From positions 195,439 to 259,438 of the forward strand of contig CAKOLO010000002.1 of the NCBI GenBank assembly GCA_934096235.1: DNA of 64,000 nucleotides, read 5' to 3'. This document shows, one piece after another, positions 6,001 through 15,000 of this stretch; the first letter of the stretch is position 1; the number at the start of each line of letters is the position of its first letter. The stretch is from an uncultured Bacilli bacterium (GTDB lineage Bacteria; Bacillota_I; Bacilli_A; RF39; UBA660). The position numbers are program-made.

Positions 6001-9000
6001 ATACTTCGCAAAAAAATATGGTAGCATAATCCTTTCTGCCATCCCCTCCAAAAAAATTACTTTATCTGCAAAAAATAAATCACAAGTATTTAATATAAAA
6101 TATTTATCAATTATATTTTTTAAGCCTGAATACTCTTGTTGATTTATAAAACTTCTTAATGACTTAATTTTTAATCCATTTTTAGTATTTAAAAAATAAT
6201 TGATATCATTTATATCAGAAGATTGTAAAATGTATGCCGAATGTGTTGATATAATTGAATATATATTACTATCATTAAATATTTTATTAATTTTTGAAAG
6301 AAATACAGATTGCATTTGCGGATGCAAATGAGATTCTGGTTCTTCCAAAAAAACCATATTAAATACTGCTTTTTTTGTATTAATATCAAACTTAAATGCT
6401 TCAATTTGTATATAAATATATAATAAATTACTATAACCTAATCCATTTGATGACTCTGATAATGCTATATCATCAAAGAAATACTTAACTTTAGAATTTT
6501 TCTTTAATAAATTTTCAATATCGAAATCAGACACTATATTCAATTTTTTATCCTTATCATCATTAACTATTTCTTCGTTTAAAACTTTAATTAACTCTGA
6601 AAAATAATTAGCATAGGTATCGTCGAGTTTATCTTTAATATTTTCAATCGCTTCTCTAAATAAATCATCACTATTCAAATCTTCAGTATTTTTTTTCTTT
6701 TTTTCTTGATAAAATTTCCAAATAGCATTAGAAAGTGTCATTTTTTCATTATCAGAAATATCATCAACTTCTCTTTGTGCCGATATCACAAATAAGTTAA
6801 ATAAATTATATATATAATTTGTATCTACACTGTTAAGATATGTTGATTCTGGTTTAGAAGAAAAATACTTTTTACTATAGTAATTGTAAAATTCTCTTTC
6901 AAAAAAACTATAAAAATCAATTTTATCTTCTTCTCTTTTGAATTTTTCATTATAGGTTTCATAATCAATAAAAATCTTATTATTTTTATCTAAAGAAAAT
7001 TCACATTTTATAATTATAGTATTATTATTATCAAATTCATAAATTAAATCTTTTATCAATGCTAAGTTATCATTTTCGTCTATATCTATTGAGATATTCA
7101 TTTCTATTACTGGAAATTCTTTCACTATTTCTTCATTACCCGCTTTATAGTTATTATATAATTCATTTATTAAATTCCTTCTTATTTTTTTGTAATTAAA
7201 GTCGCTAAATTTAAATGTAGAAGTGTTTGTTAAAAATTTAGTCATTATTTCTACAATTGATGTTTTTGCAGTGTTGTTCTTTCCTACAATAATGGTTTGC
7301 TTATTAATACTTAATAAACATCTTTCTTCAGATTTTCTGTAATTTTTAAAATCGATACTATGTATTTTCATAAACTTCTCCTTACAACTAAAAAATAGTA
7401 TTTATCATAAAAGATTAAATACTACACATCTAATATTAATTATATCATATAATTCACTTTTTTGATAATTTAAACAGCATTTAATAACTAAAAATTGTTT
7501 TTTGTTCTTTTACAATGAAAACTTATCAAAAACTTTGACATTAAGCCAAAATCCTTATATTTTAAAGCAAACAAGACACTATTACACTTTGCCTACATTC
7601 TTACCTTTCGCACCTCCTGCATTCAAGTGATTTGAAACAACAACTACATCTTTACTATCGCCAAAGAAGCTTTGTACTTTATTTATTCTTTCTTTTGGAG
7701 TTAATGTTACATCACTATCTCTTGTTAATCTAACAGGTACGCCTAATTCTTTTAATCTATCATACATGTACTTACTAATACGAAGTGTAAAATCTTTTTC
7801 TTTAAGTCCATTAGAGACTGCTCCAGGATCGGTTCCTCCATGTCCTGGATCTATAACTATTCCTTTTAAAGCCATATAATCACCTAATTTATTGTATGAA
7901 AAAACATATATTTTGCTAATATATGTTTTAATAAATTCCTTTTTGTTCTAGTTTTTCTTTTAAATCTTTTGCTGCTAAGAATCTGGCACTTTTCTTATTC
8001 TTTTCTTCAGGTGTCAATTCTGCTAAAGTTCTTCCATCTAATAATTCAAATATTTCATCAAAACCAAAGCCATTGTCTCCTCGTCTTGTCTCTGTTATAT
8101 TTCCATCAAGTATACCCTCTCCAACTATTGTATCTTCACCATTATAATAAACTAGTTCACATACCACTTTGGCGCTTTTATCTTCACACTTCTTTACTTC
8201 ATTGATTATATATTCATTTCTTTCTTTATCAGTAGCATCTTCGCCTAAGAATCTATGTGTCATTACTCCTGGAAATCCATTTAACGCATTTACACATAAA
8301 CCTGAGTCATCCGCGATAACTGGCATGTTCGCTATATTATAAATTTCGTGTGCTTTCTTTTTAGCATTTCTTAAAAAAGTATCAGCATCTTCTTCAACTT
8401 CTTTATCTATCTTTTTATCCCTTAATGTATAAATTGTATCATCATTAAATATACTTTTTATTTCATTAATTTTAAATTTATTGTTTGTTGCGATTAAAAC
8501 TTCCATAAAATCACCTACTTTTCTAATATCCATTCTTGTAAATATTTTATTTCACTATTGCAAAATTCGCATCTACCTTTAGTAGCATCAATAGAAGCAC
8601 CACAATTATGACATTTAATATAATTAATACCTTTATTTAATTCTAAAGTACCATTTTCATTTTTTTTCATAGTGAATACTTCAGTCATATATTTTGAATT
8701 TAATTTTCCATTCTCTACGGTTATTACTCTTAAATATGCAGTTACATCTACATAACCAATATTATTCTTTTTATAATCTTTAAATTCATCATAGTCAATT
8801 ATATCAAAATCTATTATATTTTCTTTACTATAATAGTATTTTCTAACTTCATAGTTAAAATTATTAAAGAATGTTTTTTTGTCTAAGTTTGTTCTACTCC
8901 AAAATGCTTTTTGTTTTTCATTTTGTCTATCTTTATATCTTTTTATTGGACCTAATATAATATATCCATCAATTACATAAAAACCATAATAAAATATACA

Positions 9001-12000: not shown

Positions 12001-15000
12001 CACCAAGTGTTGTTACTGTATCTGGTATAATCGCTTTTGTCAAATATGCACAATCTTTGAATGCTCCGCCATCTATAGTTTCAAGACCGTTTGGTAAATT
12101 TATTTCTTTTAATGATGAACTTTTAAATGCACTTCCTCCTATTTGTTTTAAAGTACTAGGTATTTCAATATATTCTAAACTATCGGTATTTTCAAAAGCA
12201 CTTCCACCAATTCTTTCTAAACCTTCTGGTAATGTAACTGATGATAAGGAATATGCATTATTAAATGTATCTCCATTTATTTCTTTTACTTTAGATGGTA
12301 TATCTATTGATTTTAATGATATACAATCTTTGAATGCTCCACCACCTAGGTATTCTAAATTTTCTGGTAAATTAATTTTTTCTAGTTTTGTTAGTCCAGC
12401 AAATGCTTGACCTCTTATTTCTATTATAGTATTTGGTAAGTTAATTTCAGTTAAATCTTTCATGTTTGAAAAAGTATTTCCACGTAATGCGATAACATTT
12501 TTTCCTTTGTGTGTATCAGGTATAGTTGCAGTTGTTTTATTACTTAATCCATATGCATAGAATCTTACTCCATAACCATTATCCATTTTTTCATAAAATA
12601 TTTTTGGATTTCTAAATACTACAAGTGGTATACATATAGCAATCATGCATCCAATTAATAAATAACTTTTAGATGTATCTTTTACTAATGTAGTTTTTAT
12701 ATTCATTACTATATTAGATATTTTTTCACTTGGTCTTGATTTTACTTGTTTCATAACATAACTCATAAAGTTAAATCTTATTGTGAATATAAATAATATT
12801 AATAATATAATAAATCCTATTACATAAGTTGTAGTTGGAAAATGAAAAAATATAAGTGATATATAAAAACATAATAATACTGAGAATATTGTTGATAAAA
12901 TGTTTAATCTTTTTAATGTTTGACCTGGTATTAATTTTCCTTTTATATCTATTTCTGCTTTATTTAATTCTTTTTTTACATGTTTTTCAATATATGTTAC
13001 TAAAGACATAGTTGGTTCGGTATCATAATCTAATGGTTCTACATAAACAATTTTATTATTGCTTGAAGATATAGTTTTAGTAGTTAATGCTACTCCACAT
13101 GTAGTACAAAACTTTTCTCCAGGCTTTCCTATATGTCCACAACTTGGACAAACTAGATTATTTTGATTTGTGTTTTCACTATTATTTATTTGAGTTTGAG
13201 GCATAGTAATACTTTGATTTTTTTTAATTGAAATAGACCATATTACTCTTAAAATAATAATAAATATTATACTATTAAATATTGGTGTATTTGACTCAGA
13301 TAATGACATTAATAGTGCTAATATTACTGCTGCTATTGTTGAAAGTGTTTTTACATTCTTTCTATTGTTCTCATCTTCTATTTTCTTAGAAATTGGTAAT
13401 ACTAAAATTAAGTAACCTAATGCAAATATTATCGCCGCTTTAATTATAAAACTCATATTTTCACCTCTATTATTTTTTTATTATATCATAATTTTTTTTA
13501 TCTTATCAAATATATTAAATATTGTTATTGCAAGCCCTATTATAATAATTATTGTTATTATCATATGAAAGTTAATAACTGATAATGAGAATAATTTCTT
13601 AAATAGTAGTACTCCCATTATAAATATTGTTAATAACATACTTATCATCACTAAATGATATCTTTTTGGTGGATAACATACTCTATAAATGTGTATAAAT
13701 CCGATTAATCCTACTGATATTAATGATAATGTTGATTTCTCTATGAAATCTAATGGTAAGAATGTAATTATCATTATTGATAAAACTATTATAAATGATG
13801 TAGGTATTGCTTTTCTAAATACGTTTGTTAAGAAGTTTCCAGTAACTTTCTTTTTATTTGGTTCAAGTGCTAGTATGAAAGAAGGTATTCCTATTGTTAA
13901 AGCATTTGTTAGTGTTAATTGTACTGGTATAAATGGATAGTTGTAAGGTATTAACATAAATATAAGTGCTAACATTATTGCATATCCAGTTTTTACTATA
14001 AATAAACTTGCTGATTTTTCAATGTTATTAATAGTTCTTCTTCCTTCTTCTACTATACTTGGTATTGATGTAAAGTCTGAGTTTAGTAGTACTAAGTCTG
14101 AAACATTATATGCTGCTTCACTACCACATGCAAGTGCTATACTACAATCTGATTCTTTTAATGCAAGTACATCATTTACTCCGTCACCTACCATTGATAC
14201 AGTTTTTCCAAGTTTTTTTAATTCTCTGATAATAATTTTCTTTTGGAATGGTGTTACTCTTCCAAATATCGTAGTTTTATCAACTGAATCTTTTAATTCC
14301 TCATCACTAAGAGTACTAGCATCTACATAATTATTAAAGTTAAGTCCTAGTCTTTTTACTATGTTTCTAATAGTTTTAGGATTATCACCAGATATTATCT
14401 TGATATCTACACCTTCTCTTATAAAATATTTTATTGTTTTGGATGCTTCTTCTCTTATTTTATCTTCCAAAAGTATAAGTCCGATTATAGTATCTTTATG
14501 TCTTTTATTAACTAACATTAATACTCTATAATTATCATATTTATCTAAATCTATTTTTTTATCAGTAACAAATTCAGGTGCTCCGACTATAAATTTATCT
14601 TTATTAAGTTTAATTCCTGAATATTTTTTATCTGATGAGAATGGTATTATTTCGTCAGCTTTCTCAAAGTTTTTTGGCTTAAAATACGCTTTTAATGCTT
14701 TCATTGTTGCATTATCATCTTCTAAATTACCACATATATTGTTCATTATTTCTTTAATATCGTATTTATCATTTAAGGTTATTACTTTTTTTACTTCCAT
14801 ATCCCCTTTAGTAAGTGTTCCAGTTTTATCGAAGCATATTGTATCTACTCTTGCTAGTGTTTCTATACAATATAATTGTTTTACTAATACTTTTTTCTTA
14901 GATAGTCTAATTACACTTACTGCTAAAACTGTACTAGTTAGAAGTACTAATCCTTCTGGTATCATTGCAATAAGAGCGGCAACTGTGTTTATAACTGCAG

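What the first reader, a model, noticed from the sequence alone, without database searches (positions are those of the whole stretch)
7928..13456. Unusual radical SAM/SPASM + zinc-ribbon membrane protein cassette next to the defence island (candidate novel system)
Five co-directional genes are tightly packed, with overlaps of 8 to 56 nt or gaps of 8 to 11 nt. They are a zinc-ribbon polytopic membrane protein with BspA-type LRRs, a 581-aa radical SAM/SPASM enzyme with a ~200-aa uncharacterised C-terminal extension, a 129-aa protein ending in a GGSSYGGGSS-N17 tail, a zinc-ribbon 2-TM protein and RdgB/Ham1. I recognise no described RiPP, sulfatase-maturase or defence architecture that matches. 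Radical SAM enzymes do act in antiviral nucleotide chemistry (viperins), and an ITP/XTPase in the same transcription unit could link the cassette to nucleotide-pool surveillance. Immediate adjacency to Gabija and the restriction-modification genes raises the prior for a defence role. A surface-protein or peptide-modification role is equally possible.
Basis: inference. Interest (0 to 1): 0.7.

Follow-up and report, generated by a model that had tools for sequence, protein, structure and literature searches.

The report
Radical SAM enzyme paired with poly-asparagine tails
The cassette is a conserved four-gene module built around an unstudied radical SAM enzyme that, in gut Bacilli, several Gram-negative phyla and phages, always sits beside a protein ending in a run of asparagines, which points to an undescribed protein modification rather than an anti-phage defence system.

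Summary
The genes are real and at the stated coordinates. The functional unit is four genes, not five, and I found no evidence for a defence role.

- **Conserved module.** In 80 species-level genomes of uncultured, low-GC gut Bacilli, the order is always zinc-ribbon/TM/LRR protein, then radical SAM/SPASM, then p129, then zinc-ribbon 2-TM protein. Flanking genes differ between genomes.
- **What is not part of it.** RdgB is adjacent only in the three closest relatives. Gabija and the type I R-M genes belong to a strain-specific island that cut an amidase gene.
- **The key feature is the p129 tail.** 74 of 75 orthologues end in Ser-Ser, then 10-17 Asn. In 65 of these 74 a final Arg follows. None of 1268 neighbouring proteins has such a run.
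- **The pairing crosses phyla.** Distant homologues of the enzyme occur in Trichlorobacter, Archangium (69% GC) and Betaproteobacteria. Each is followed by an unrelated ~145-aa protein ending Ser-Asn13-18-Gly.
- **Phages too.** In Campylobacter Mu-like phages the Asn tail sits on the tail-fibre protein. In jumbo-phage contigs it sits on small proteins.
- **The enzyme.** It has an anSME-like core plus a ~215-aa C-terminal domain found only in this family.

Best reading: the enzyme modifies C-terminal Asn-run tails. The chemistry is unknown. No curated family and no paper I found describes this.

The parts
13480..13509 (-). Best sigma-70-like promoter match in the region (TTGATA-18-TATAAT with an upstream TG, 11 of 12). 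It lies just upstream of the LRR gene, inside the end of the P-type ATPase gene. Possible promoter for the cassette.
   Evidence: This is a consensus match only, and the region's match count is not above shuffled expectation. No terminator-like site lies inside 7928-13456.
11678..13456 (-). Gene 1: 592-aa membrane protein. It has N-terminal TM segments, a CxxC...CxxC zinc ribbon (around residues 101-119), a conserved TM hairpin (IFFHFP...), the conserved motif RPxEKISNIVM, a last TM and then BspA-type LRR_5 repeats. The LRRs are inferred to be extracellular.
   Evidence: Pfam LRR_5 E 2e-84. Orthologues lie immediately upstream of the radical SAM gene in all 80 loci. The architecture is conserved in a 65-sequence alignment. 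Its zinc ribbon is related to that of gene 4 (hhalign 95%).
10588..11667 (-). Gene 2, residues 1-360: radical SAM core (CNMKCKYC, Cys16/20/23) plus a full SPASM domain. Eight cysteines are invariant (256, 262, 278, 321, 324, 330, 334, 349), enough for two auxiliary 4Fe-4S clusters.
9922..10587 (-). Gene 2, residues 361-581 plus the stop codon: family-specific C-terminal domain. It is beta-rich, with invariant motifs YGDExRxKQxH and TTxxLRxxHYxKxxxNAxYHxQxxNLPFxN. Inferred to be the tail-recognition module.
   Evidence: No Pfam, NCBIfam or PDB sequence match. Only 95 hits among 1.84 billion representatives, all fragments or ~590-616-aa enzymes of the same architecture. AF2 block pLDDT 78-96 across residues 401-570, 67 and 73 at the two edges. 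The motifs are invariant in cellular and phage clades.
9540..9929 (-). Gene 3 (p129): about 95 aa of conserved N-terminal domain, a Ser/Gly-rich linker, then an Asn15 run and a terminal Arg. Inferred substrate of gene 2.
   Evidence: Alignment of 75 orthologues. Tail statistics. No Pfam or NCBIfam family.
9543..9590 (-). The Asn15-Arg tail itself: 15 Asn codons in a mixed AAT/AAC order, then AGA.
   Evidence: 74 of 75 orthologues have N10-17 at the C-terminus, against 0 of 1268 other proteins in the same loci. Analogous tails sit next to homologous enzymes in 56-69% GC genomes and in phages.
8515..9528 (-). Gene 4: 337-aa protein with an N-terminal beta-rich domain, zinc ribbon 1 (C86/C89/C102/C105), two TM helices (about residues 131-182), a C-terminal helix plus three long strands (weakly NTF2/cystatin/Tim44-like) and zinc ribbon 2 (C306/C309/C320/C323).

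Best explanation
The unit is a four-gene module: LRR membrane protein, radical SAM/SPASM enzyme, p129 and a zinc-ribbon 2-TM protein. Its core is an enzyme-substrate pair.

The enzyme has an anSME-like core with three 4Fe-4S clusters. It also has a unique ~215-aa C-terminal domain rich in invariant His, Tyr, Arg, Asn and Gln. I propose that this domain binds the C-terminal tail of the co-encoded protein, which reads small or hydroxyl residues, then an Asn run, then one last residue. The 5'-deoxyadenosyl radical would then abstract hydrogen from residues of that tail and install a modification. Along long runs the modification is probably repeated.

In the gut Bacilli the modified p129 would then act at the cytoplasmic face of the membrane with the two zinc-ribbon membrane proteins. 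One of these displays BspA-type LRRs outside the cell. In phages the same chemistry would mature the distal end of tail-fibre or receptor-binding proteins.

Shown:
- gene linkage;
- conservation of the tail across clades whose carrier domains are unrelated;
- the enzyme's fold and cluster ligands;
- exclusivity of the C-terminal domain to this family.

Inferred:
- that the tail is the substrate;
- that the C-terminal domain recognises it;
- the membrane or surface destination.

Unknown: the chemistry. Candidates are Asn C-alpha epimerisation, C-beta cross-linking or dehydrogenation, and oxidation of the conserved Ser just before the run.
For: **Linkage**
- LRR, enzyme, p129 and 2-TM protein keep the same order and strand in 80 species-level genomes, and 222 species matched in total.
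- The enzyme is 67-81% identical where p129 is about 45-50% and the LRR protein about 40%, which indicates strong constraint.

**Tail in the Bacilli**
- 74 of 75 p129 orthologues end in SS-N10-17. In 65 of these 74 a terminal R follows the run.
- None of the 1268 other proteins in the same AT-rich loci has an N6 or longer run.

**Tail in other clades**
- Trichlorobacter lovleyi, Archangium sp. Cb G35 (locus GC 0.69), Uliginosibacterium, Formivibrio, Ca. Aalborgicola, Propionivibrio and two metagenome contigs all carry the enzyme followed directly by a ~145-aa protein ending (S)-N13-18-G.
- A ninth locus, cut by the contig end, reads ...TNT-N10.
- The runs use mixed AAT/AAC codons even in high-GC genomes.

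**Phages**
- The window enzyme matches phrog_1802 over its full length, E 2.8e-42.
- In Campylobacter phage CAM-P21 the homologue lies in the tail module. The annotated tail-fibre protein ends ...PSGSTNNNNY.
- In 13 of 17 IMG/VR loci exactly one ORF has an Asn-rich C-terminus. It always lies 467-656 nt upstream of the enzyme on the same strand.
- Of the other four loci, three fibres end ...GNNF or ...GNNS, and L184 shows no Asn-ended ORF.

**Carrier domains are unrelated**
- hhalign finds no significant similarity between clades: E 0.3-0.5 for Bacilli against Gram-negative, against jumbo-phage and against fibre domains.
- Only the tail is shared.

**Enzyme**
- The C-terminal domain occurs only in this family.
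Against: - There is no biochemical evidence, and no structural model of an enzyme-tail complex could be run.
- The cassette has no RRE/PqqD domain, protease or exporter, so the fate of the product is unknown.
- p129 has no signal peptide. A surface role therefore needs an unproven export or anchoring step.
- In some phage fibres the run is only two Asn, and one jumbo-phage locus (L184) shows no obvious Asn-tailed neighbour. A long run is therefore not obligatory.
- The membrane partners are not conserved between Bacilli and Gram-negatives.
- The fold search was dominated by the radical SAM core, so it did not test the fold of the C-terminal domain.
Confidence: 0.6

Rival explanations
1. Anti-phage defence system. 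The radical SAM enzyme would make an antiviral nucleotide or sense infection together with RdgB, as part of the Gabija/R-M island.
For: In this window the cassette lies about 550 nt from Gabija, and type I R-M follows. There is a weak PADLOC pVip hit: 29 bits over residues 13-94. Phage-encoded homologues exist.
Against: - The pVip hit covers only the generic CxxxCxxC region, and viperins lack SPASM.
- No other cassette protein hits PADLOC.
- RdgB is linked only in the three closest relatives.
- Gabija is in none of the 80 loci. The island is strain-specific and sits in a truncated amidase gene.
- The 128 flanking genes elsewhere are housekeeping genes with no GajA.
- The module has a fixed composition across at least 222 species with a highly conserved enzyme, unlike patchy defence genes.
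- It is essentially absent from plasmids, with one prophage-like hit.
- In phages the enzyme sits in the tail-fibre module, not in an anti-defence locus.
Confidence: 0.04
2. The Asn-tailed protein is not the substrate. It would be an adaptor or scaffold, or its tail a docking handle, while the enzyme modifies something else such as the LRR protein, the phage fibre body, a lipid or a small molecule.
For: The carrier proteins are 84-690 aa, much larger than classical RiPP precursors. No leader protease or exporter is present. anSME, the closest structure, acts on folded-protein substrates encoded elsewhere (plus established knowledge).
Against: - The only feature shared by all partner proteins is the tail.
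- No other conserved neighbour exists across clades.
- The Gram-negative unit has only a 2-TM protein besides the pair, and that protein is unrelated to the Bacilli membrane proteins.
- Adjacent, co-oriented genes for a conserved C-terminal motif are the classical signature of radical SAM/SPASM substrates.
Confidence: 0.2
3. A conventional secreted RiPP natural product, such as a bacteriocin or signal. p129 would be a long-leader precursor whose Asn-rich core is cleaved off and exported.
For: The enzyme's nearest relatives by profile and fold are RiPP maturases: DynA, PapB, the DarE group, CteB, SuiB and SkfB. The ~95-aa N-domain recalls long NHLP/Nif11-type leaders (from memory, not tested).
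Against: - No protease, ABC/PCAT exporter or immunity gene lies in or near the module in any clade.
- The module appears to be vertically conserved in a whole lineage of small, low-GC genomes rather than sporadic.
- In phages the tail belongs to a structural tail-fibre protein.
- A homopolymeric Asn core has no precedent as an antimicrobial.
Confidence: 0.12
4. The Asn run is not functional at the protein level. It would be either a compositional by-product of a 25% GC genome or a translational sensor for Asn-tRNA that controls the downstream gene.
For: The window is 25% GC, and Asn runs are common in AT-rich proteomes (literature on Plasmodium). In the Bacilli the run ends 11 nt before the next gene.
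Against: - 0 of 1268 other proteins in the same loci have such a run.
- The run persists in 56-69% GC genomes with mixed codons.
- In Gram-negatives the Asn-tailed gene is the last of the unit, with convergent genes after it in most of the loci examined, so there is usually nothing co-directional to attenuate.
- In phages the run ends a tail-fibre protein.
Confidence: 0.02

Closest known systems
Anaerobic sulfatase-maturating enzyme (anSME, TIGR03942; PDB 4K36-4K39)
   Different: The score is 92 bits against a family cut-off of 349. No sulfatase gene or (C/S)xPxR motif is among the conserved neighbours. The residue after the third SPASM Cys is Val, where anSME has Asp277 (alignment; the role of Asp277 is from memory). 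There is an extra ~215-aa C-terminal domain. The partner carries an Asn-run tail.
Radical SAM/SPASM RiPP maturases (DynA, PapB, DarE/DarW, CteB, SuiB, SkfB, TigE, GrrM/XyeB cyclophane formers)
   Different: All scores are far below the family cut-offs. There is no N-terminal RRE, because the cluster motif starts at residue 16. There is no protease or exporter. The substrate candidates are 84-690-aa proteins with a homopolymeric Asn C-terminus, and the tail contains no Cys, Trp or Lys cross-link partners.
MftC/MftA and PqqE/PqqA (radical SAM/SPASM enzymes acting on the extreme C-terminus or a fixed motif of a small partner)
   Different: Those systems need a separate PqqD/MftB RRE protein and downstream peptidases and tailoring enzymes, and they yield a small-molecule cofactor. 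None of these genes is present here.
Proteusin epimerases (PoyD-type) and YydG/EpeE
   Different: No sequence-family membership was shown. The epimerisation chemistry is untested here.
SCIFF/ScfB
   Same: A lineage-wide, apparently housekeeping radical SAM/SPASM-plus-peptide pair of unknown function (from memory).
   Different: The ScfB-related model scores 45.7 bits against a cut-off of 855. The partner is Asn-rich, not Cys-rich.
PHROG phrog_1802 ('radical SAM domain-containing protein', function unknown)
   Same: Full-length match including the C-terminal domain: window enzyme E 2.8e-42, P0450 E 1.2e-44 and the L088 enzyme E 1.5e-40. This is the same protein family.
   Different: The PHROG carries no functional annotation and no link to Asn-tailed partners.

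Membership tests
anSME (TIGR03942 / PRK13745 / PRK13758) | Whole-protein score at or above the curated cut-off | tested here: not met
   92.2 bits against 349.45, 66.4 against 484 and 41.8 against 441.
anSME (TIGR03942 / PRK13745 / PRK13758) | CX3CX2C cluster plus a SPASM domain with two fully Cys-ligated auxiliary clusters | tested here: met
anSME (TIGR03942 / PRK13745 / PRK13758) | Cognate sulfatase substrate with a (C/S)-x-(P/A)-x-R motif | tested here: not met
   Only four gene clusters are conserved around the enzyme, and none is a sulfatase. The Pfam scan of 128 flanking proteins does not list a sulfatase among its 25 most frequent families.
anSME (TIGR03942 / PRK13745 / PRK13758) | Catalytic Asp following the third SPASM Cys (Asp277 in the C. 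perfringens enzyme; its role is recalled from memory) | tested here: not met
   In the HMM alignment, 'pCdf' of anSME aligns to 'sCvrg' of the family. Val279 is nearly invariant and Arg280 invariant.
Classical RiPP biosynthetic cluster with a radical SAM/SPASM maturase | Adjacent gene for a precursor with a conserved modified motif | tested here: met
   An Asn-tailed partner lies adjacent in 74 of 75 Bacilli loci, 9 of 9 Gram-negative loci and 16 of 17 phage loci (13 with N4 or more or an Asn-rich end, 3 with NN). Whether the motif is actually modified could not be tested.
Classical RiPP biosynthetic cluster with a radical SAM/SPASM maturase | RiPP recognition element (PqqD-like) fused to the enzyme or encoded alongside | tested here: inconclusive
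   No PqqD/RRE hit in Pfam or NCBIfam for any cassette protein. The enzyme has no N-terminal extension. Remote RRE-like folds in p129 or in the C-terminal domain were not excluded.
Classical RiPP biosynthetic cluster with a radical SAM/SPASM maturase | Leader peptidase and/or dedicated exporter | tested here: not met
   None among the conserved neighbours in any clade.
Prokaryotic viperin (pVip) defence | Full-length match to viperin models; no SPASM domain; patchy occurrence in defence islands | tested here: not met
Gabija | The GajA plus GajB pair | tested here: met
   GajA E 3.9e-140 and GajB E 9e-112 at 3728-7371. This is a separate, strain-specific neighbour and is absent from all 80 related loci.
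SCIFF maturase ScfB / GrrM / HxsB and other NCBIfam equivalogs | Score above the family cut-off and the cognate Cys-rich, Gly-rich or HxS peptide | tested here: not met
   All 35 hits are far below their own family cut-offs; only the generic SPASM domain model TIGR04085 passes (44 bits against 27). Examples: 45.7 against 855, 52.1 against 310 and 61.4 against 370. The partner peptide is of a different type.
phrog_1802 (phage radical SAM proteins, function unknown) | Full-length profile match including the C-terminal domain | tested here: met
   Residues 11-580 against profile positions 49-555 of 556, E 2.8e-42.
RdgB/Ham1 (TIGR00042) | Score above the cut-off | tested here: met
   154.3 bits against 145.35. 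Its linkage to the cassette is not conserved.

The most novel reading that the evidence does not exclude
A previously unrecognised post-translational modification system. It would be a dedicated radical SAM/SPASM family (anSME-like core plus a unique C-terminal domain, equal to phrog_1802) that recognises and chemically alters C-terminal oligo- or poly-asparagine tails. These tails sit on otherwise unrelated carrier proteins: a cytoplasmic 130-aa protein working with zinc-ribbon/LRR membrane proteins in gut Bacilli, a ~145-aa protein partnered with a 2-TM protein in Beta-proteobacteria, Myxococcota and Geobacterales, and tail-fibre or receptor-binding proteins in Campylobacter Mu-like and jumbo phages. 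The chemistry would be new for radical SAM enzymes, for example processive epimerisation or cross-linking of a homopolymeric Asn run.
Probability: 0.55. Interest if true: 0.9.

Novelty: new variant of a known kind. Interest (0 to 1): 0.8.

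Why it matters
If the tail is the substrate, this defines a new substrate class for radical SAM/SPASM enzymes and probably a new reaction. A homopolymeric Asn C-terminus has no described radical modification. 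I found no Pfam or NCBIfam model for the partner proteins. Three of the four literature searches combined 'radical SAM' with poly-Asn or Asn-rich terms, and none returned a relevant paper.

The system is unusually widespread:
- It looks like a conserved, constrained module of a large lineage of uncultured human and animal gut Bacilli with small genomes.
- It recurs in cultivable Trichlorobacter lovleyi, Archangium and Formivibrio.
- It is built into phage tail-fibre modules, which suggests a role in surface or adhesion structures.

The cultivable hosts make it directly testable. It also illustrates that sitting next to a defence island in one strain can be accidental.

Tried and rejected
- **Defence hypothesis.** PADLOC on all cassette proteins and on 128 flanking proteins from other genomes. 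Nothing specific: the five GajB-model hits are UvrD-type helicases (UvrD Pfam domains; best GajB-model E 1.3e-41), and there is no GajA.
- **RdgB as a member.** Rejected by synteny.
- **Homology between carrier domains of different clades.** hhalign E 0.3-0.5, not significant. There is only a weak 18-column hint between jumbo-phage small proteins and fibre C-termini (E 7e-4).
- **Homology between the Gram-negative 2-TM protein and either Bacilli membrane protein.** Not significant. Only the zinc ribbons of the two Bacilli proteins are related.
- **Extra small precursor ORFs in 9529-9539.** The gap is 11 nt, so there is no room. The ORF listing at 40 aa or more shows only out-of-frame antisense or overlapping ORFs.
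- **Plasmid or phage carriage of the Bacilli-type cassette.** One IMG/VR contig and one Campylobacter 'plasmid'.
- **Attenuation or AT-bias explanation of the Asn run.** Rejected.
- **Literature.** Four searches found nothing that describes the system. The Campylobacter CP220 paper concerns other radical SAM genes.

Full report
**1. Observation**

The window is about 25% GC.

| Gene | Coordinates | Evidence |
|---|---|---|
| LRR membrane protein, 592 aa | 11678-13456 | LRR_5 E 2e-84; weak zinc-ribbon hits at residues 101-122 |
| Radical SAM/SPASM enzyme, 581 aa from the ATG | 9922-11667 | Radical_SAM, Fer4_12 and SPASM cover residues 10-324 only |
| Zinc-ribbon 2-TM protein, 337 aa | 8515-9528 | Four CxxC pairs and two TM helices |
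| RdgB/Ham1 | 7928-8533 | TIGR00042 above its cut-off |

Downstream lie a 97-aa N-terminal fragment of an Amidase_3 protein, then GajA/GajB (PADLOC E 3.9e-140 and 9e-112). After these come a Phd-like antitoxin and the type I R-M genes HsdM and HsdS.

The best promoter-like site in the region sits directly upstream of the LRR gene. No terminator-like site interrupts the cassette (consensus matches only).

**2. What is conserved**

A scan of one genome per species found relatives of the enzyme in 222 species, and 80 loci were fetched. They come from uncultured gut Bacilli. The records label them Bacilli, 'Tenericutes', 'Mycoplasma sp. CAG', 'Clostridium sp. CAG' or Candidatus Faecimonas (Bacilli incertae sedis). 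Median locus GC is 0.26. From memory these names correspond to the RF39-like lineage, which I did not test.

tblastn and de novo ORF clustering give the same result.
- Only four protein clusters are shared: LRR protein, enzyme, p129 and the 2-TM protein.
- They always appear in that order and on the same strand.
- The next most common neighbour occurs in at most 12 loci.
- RdgB, the amidase and the P-type ATPase are adjacent only in the three closest relatives (L001-L003).
- Gabija is in none of the 80 loci.

L003 has an enzyme 100% identical over the tblastn best segment. It carries the same truncated amidase, but the fragment is followed by a different island: a HATPase_c_3 protein, an unknown protein and two genes that look like DNA C5-methyltransferases (read from the translations only; not domain-tested). 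L002 has an intact 403-aa amidase that appears to carry LysM-type repeats (not domain-tested) and no island. The defence island is therefore a strain-variable insertion, and its adjacency to the cassette is accidental.

I also scanned the 128 genes immediately flanking the cassette in the other genomes. They are diverse housekeeping genes (flavodoxin, PfkB, GNAT, glycosyltransferases, UvrD-type helicases) with no GajA.

The four-gene form also occurs on 41-50% GC contigs labelled Lachnospiraceae or Acetatifactor, and on one IMG/VR contig.

**3. The central feature is the Asn tail**

The 75 p129 orthologues are only about 45-50% identical overall. They share a ~95-aa N-terminal domain, a Ser/Gly linker (49% Ser, 23% Gly) and a C-terminal Asn run.
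- The run is 10-17 residues long, with a median of 13.
- It is preceded by Ser-Ser in 74 of 74 cases.
- It is followed by a single Arg in 65 of 74 cases.
- None of the 1268 other proteins called in the same AT-rich loci has a run of six or more Asn.

The enzyme's C-terminal extension (residues 375-581) was searched against 1.84 billion representative proteins and found only 95 hits. All are fragments or ~590-616-aa proteins of the same architecture, and some are high-GC.

I then followed those distant relatives, which are 27-43% identical in the extension. Every Gram-negative locus shows a three-gene unit:
- a ~155-aa 2-TM protein;
- the enzyme;
- a ~145-aa protein ending (S)-N13-18-G.

The loci are Trichlorobacter lovleyi, Archangium sp. 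Cb G35 (locus GC 0.69), Uliginosibacterium, Formivibrio citricus, Ca. Aalborgicola, Propionivibrio and two metagenome contigs. A ninth, truncated locus reads ...TNT-N10. Flanks differ in every genome. The runs use interspersed AAT and AAC codons in all clades. That argues for selection on the protein and against slippage or base-composition bias.

**4. Phages**

The window enzyme matches PHROG phrog_1802 over its full length, E 2.8e-42.

In Campylobacter phage CAM-P21 the homologue lies inside the tail module. The gene order is baseplate genes, tail fibre, a 211-aa protein, the enzyme, a 128-aa protein that I read as DUF1353-like and whose plasmid counterpart is annotated DUF1353, a 337-aa protein, then sheath and tube. 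The annotated tail-fibre protein ends ...PSGSTNNNNY.

I examined 17 IMG/VR loci.
- In 13 of them exactly one ORF has an Asn-rich C-terminus. It always lies 467-656 nt upstream of the enzyme on the same strand.
- Campylobacter-type fibres have different receptor-binding ends but share ...(S/A)(T/S)NNNNY or ...SCNNNNN.
- Jumbo-phage contigs have small proteins ending ...FSNNNNNN(N)LAGNV, ...TSSNNNNNNRG or ...TRNNNGNNNNSCSGGW.
- Three further fibres end ...TGNNF...MGNNS or ...SGNNF. One locus (L184) shows none.

The N-terminal carrier domains from Bacilli, Gram-negatives, jumbo phages and Campylobacter fibres show no significant profile-profile similarity (E 0.3-0.5). The only element shared by all partners of this enzyme family is the tail: small or hydroxyl residues, then Asn, then a last residue.

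**5. The enzyme**

Invariant residues give the radical SAM cluster (Cys16/20/23) and eight SPASM cysteines (256, 262, 278, 321, 324, 330, 334, 349). These positions almost coincide with those of anSME.

- The AF2 model is confident: mean pLDDT 87.7, with block pLDDT 78-96 across residues 401-570 of the extension, 67 and 73 at its edges.
- No NCBIfam equivalog is reached. The best is anSME at 92 bits against a cut-off of 349.
- The anSME Cys-Asp pair aligns to Cys-Val-Arg here.

The extension is beta-rich with a C-terminal helix pair. It carries invariant polar and aromatic motifs in all clades: YGDExRxKQxH and TTxxLRxxHYxKxxxNAxYHxQxxNLPFxN. There is no N-terminal RRE.

I infer that the extension is the recognition module for Asn-rich tails. 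Its invariant His, Tyr, Arg, Asn and Gln would suit hydrogen bonding to carboxamide side chains. This is inference, not a result.

**6. Membrane partners**

- The LRR protein has a conserved architecture: TM segments, zinc ribbon, TM hairpin, the RPxEKISNIVM motif, a last TM and then LRR_5 repeats. The LRRs are outside the cell if the zinc ribbon is cytoplasmic.
- The Gram-negative 2-TM protein is unrelated by hhalign.

Every cellular version thus pairs the enzyme-tail couple with a small membrane protein, but the membrane proteins are lineage-specific.

**7. Mechanism and rivals**

Most likely (about 0.6): the enzyme modifies the C-terminal Asn-run tail of the adjacent protein. The product acts at the membrane or cell surface in cells, and at the tail-fibre tip in phages.

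The chemistry is open. Candidates are:
- iterative C-alpha epimerisation;
- C-beta cross-linking or dehydrogenation of Asn;
- anSME-like oxidation of the invariant Ser before the run.

Rivals:
- The tail is a docking handle and the true substrate is something else (about 0.2).
- A classical secreted RiPP (about 0.12; no protease or exporter, lineage-wide conservation, structural phage carrier).
- A defence system (about 0.04).
- An artefact or attenuator (about 0.02).

**8. Novelty**

The partner proteins hit no Pfam, NCBIfam or PADLOC model above noise. The only hits are below-cutoff chance matches: for p129, three Pfam hits at 16.5-21.5 bits and one PADLOC hit at 13.6 bits; for the Gram-negative partners, one Pfam and one NCBIfam hit of the same kind. 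Public records name the enzyme only 'radical SAM protein' or 'SPASM domain-containing protein', and the Trichlorobacter 2-TM protein 'hypothetical protein' or 'Transmembrane protein'. Four full-text searches were run. Three combined 'radical SAM' with poly-Asn or Asn-rich terms and one with phage tail fibres, and none found a relevant paper.

I rate it a new variant of a known kind. It is a radical SAM/SPASM maturase with an adjacent substrate, but with a new recognition domain, a new substrate class and an unusual spread across cells and phage tail fibres.

Noticed in passing
window 509-7875 (- strand); compare L002 13211-14422 and L003 13793-20402: A strain-variable defence island sits in a truncated N-acetylmuramoyl-L-alanine amidase gene. 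The window has a 97-aa amidase fragment (7582-7875), then Gabija (3728-7371), a Phd-like antitoxin (3346-3564) and type I R-M HsdM/HsdS (509-3335). L003 has the same fragment followed by a HATPase_c_3 protein, an unknown 442-aa protein and two genes that look like C5-methyltransferases (not domain-tested). L002 has the intact 403-aa amidase, which appears to carry LysM-type repeats.
   Followed up: partly
L170 (Campylobacter phage CAM-P21, MW462221.2) 3235-8132: The phage tail module contains a tail-fibre gene ending ...STNNNNY, a 211-aa protein, the radical SAM homologue, a 128-aa protein I read as DUF1353-like (its plasmid counterpart is annotated DUF1353) and a 337-aa protein. The 128-aa and 337-aa lengths mimic p129 and the 2-TM protein, but the sequences are unrelated, so this is a coincidence of length.
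   Followed up: partly
L088 4656-9749 and L182-L186, L200 (jumbo-phage-like contigs): Small 84-109-aa ORFs with Asn-rich ends precede a 148-aa ORF and the radical SAM gene. In L088 the small ORF resembles the C-terminus of the preceding 869-aa protein (...NNKVVLDWRDVG against ...DNEVILDWKTC). Genes like internal head proteins follow.
   Followed up: partly
window 9543-9929; L162 7853-8254; L164 7849-8292: The exact sequences of the Asn-tailed proteins are absent from the 15-billion-protein collection, although their neighbours are present. Gene callers seem to miss them or to start them differently, which may explain why the pairing has gone unnoticed.
   Followed up: no
L008, L012, L019, L023, L028 (gene cluster 22, about 560 aa, opposite strand, downstream of the cassette): A UvrD/PcrA-type helicase lies next to the cassette in five genomes. 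It hits many PADLOC GajB models (best E 1e-41) with no GajA nearby. This shows that GajB models cross-hit UvrD-type helicases that have no GajA partner.
   Followed up: partly
plasmid record NZ_CP082878.1 166047-167786 (Campylobacter coli, 192 kb): This is the only PLSDB hit to the enzyme family. It is annotated 'radical SAM protein' next to a DUF1353 protein, so it is probably a Mu-like prophage inside a megaplasmid.
   Followed up: no
window 15785-16117 (- strand): A 110-aa acidic ORF upstream of the P-type ATPase has no Pfam hit. It is conserved only in L001-L003. A terminator-like hairpin lies at 15773-15786.
   Followed up: no
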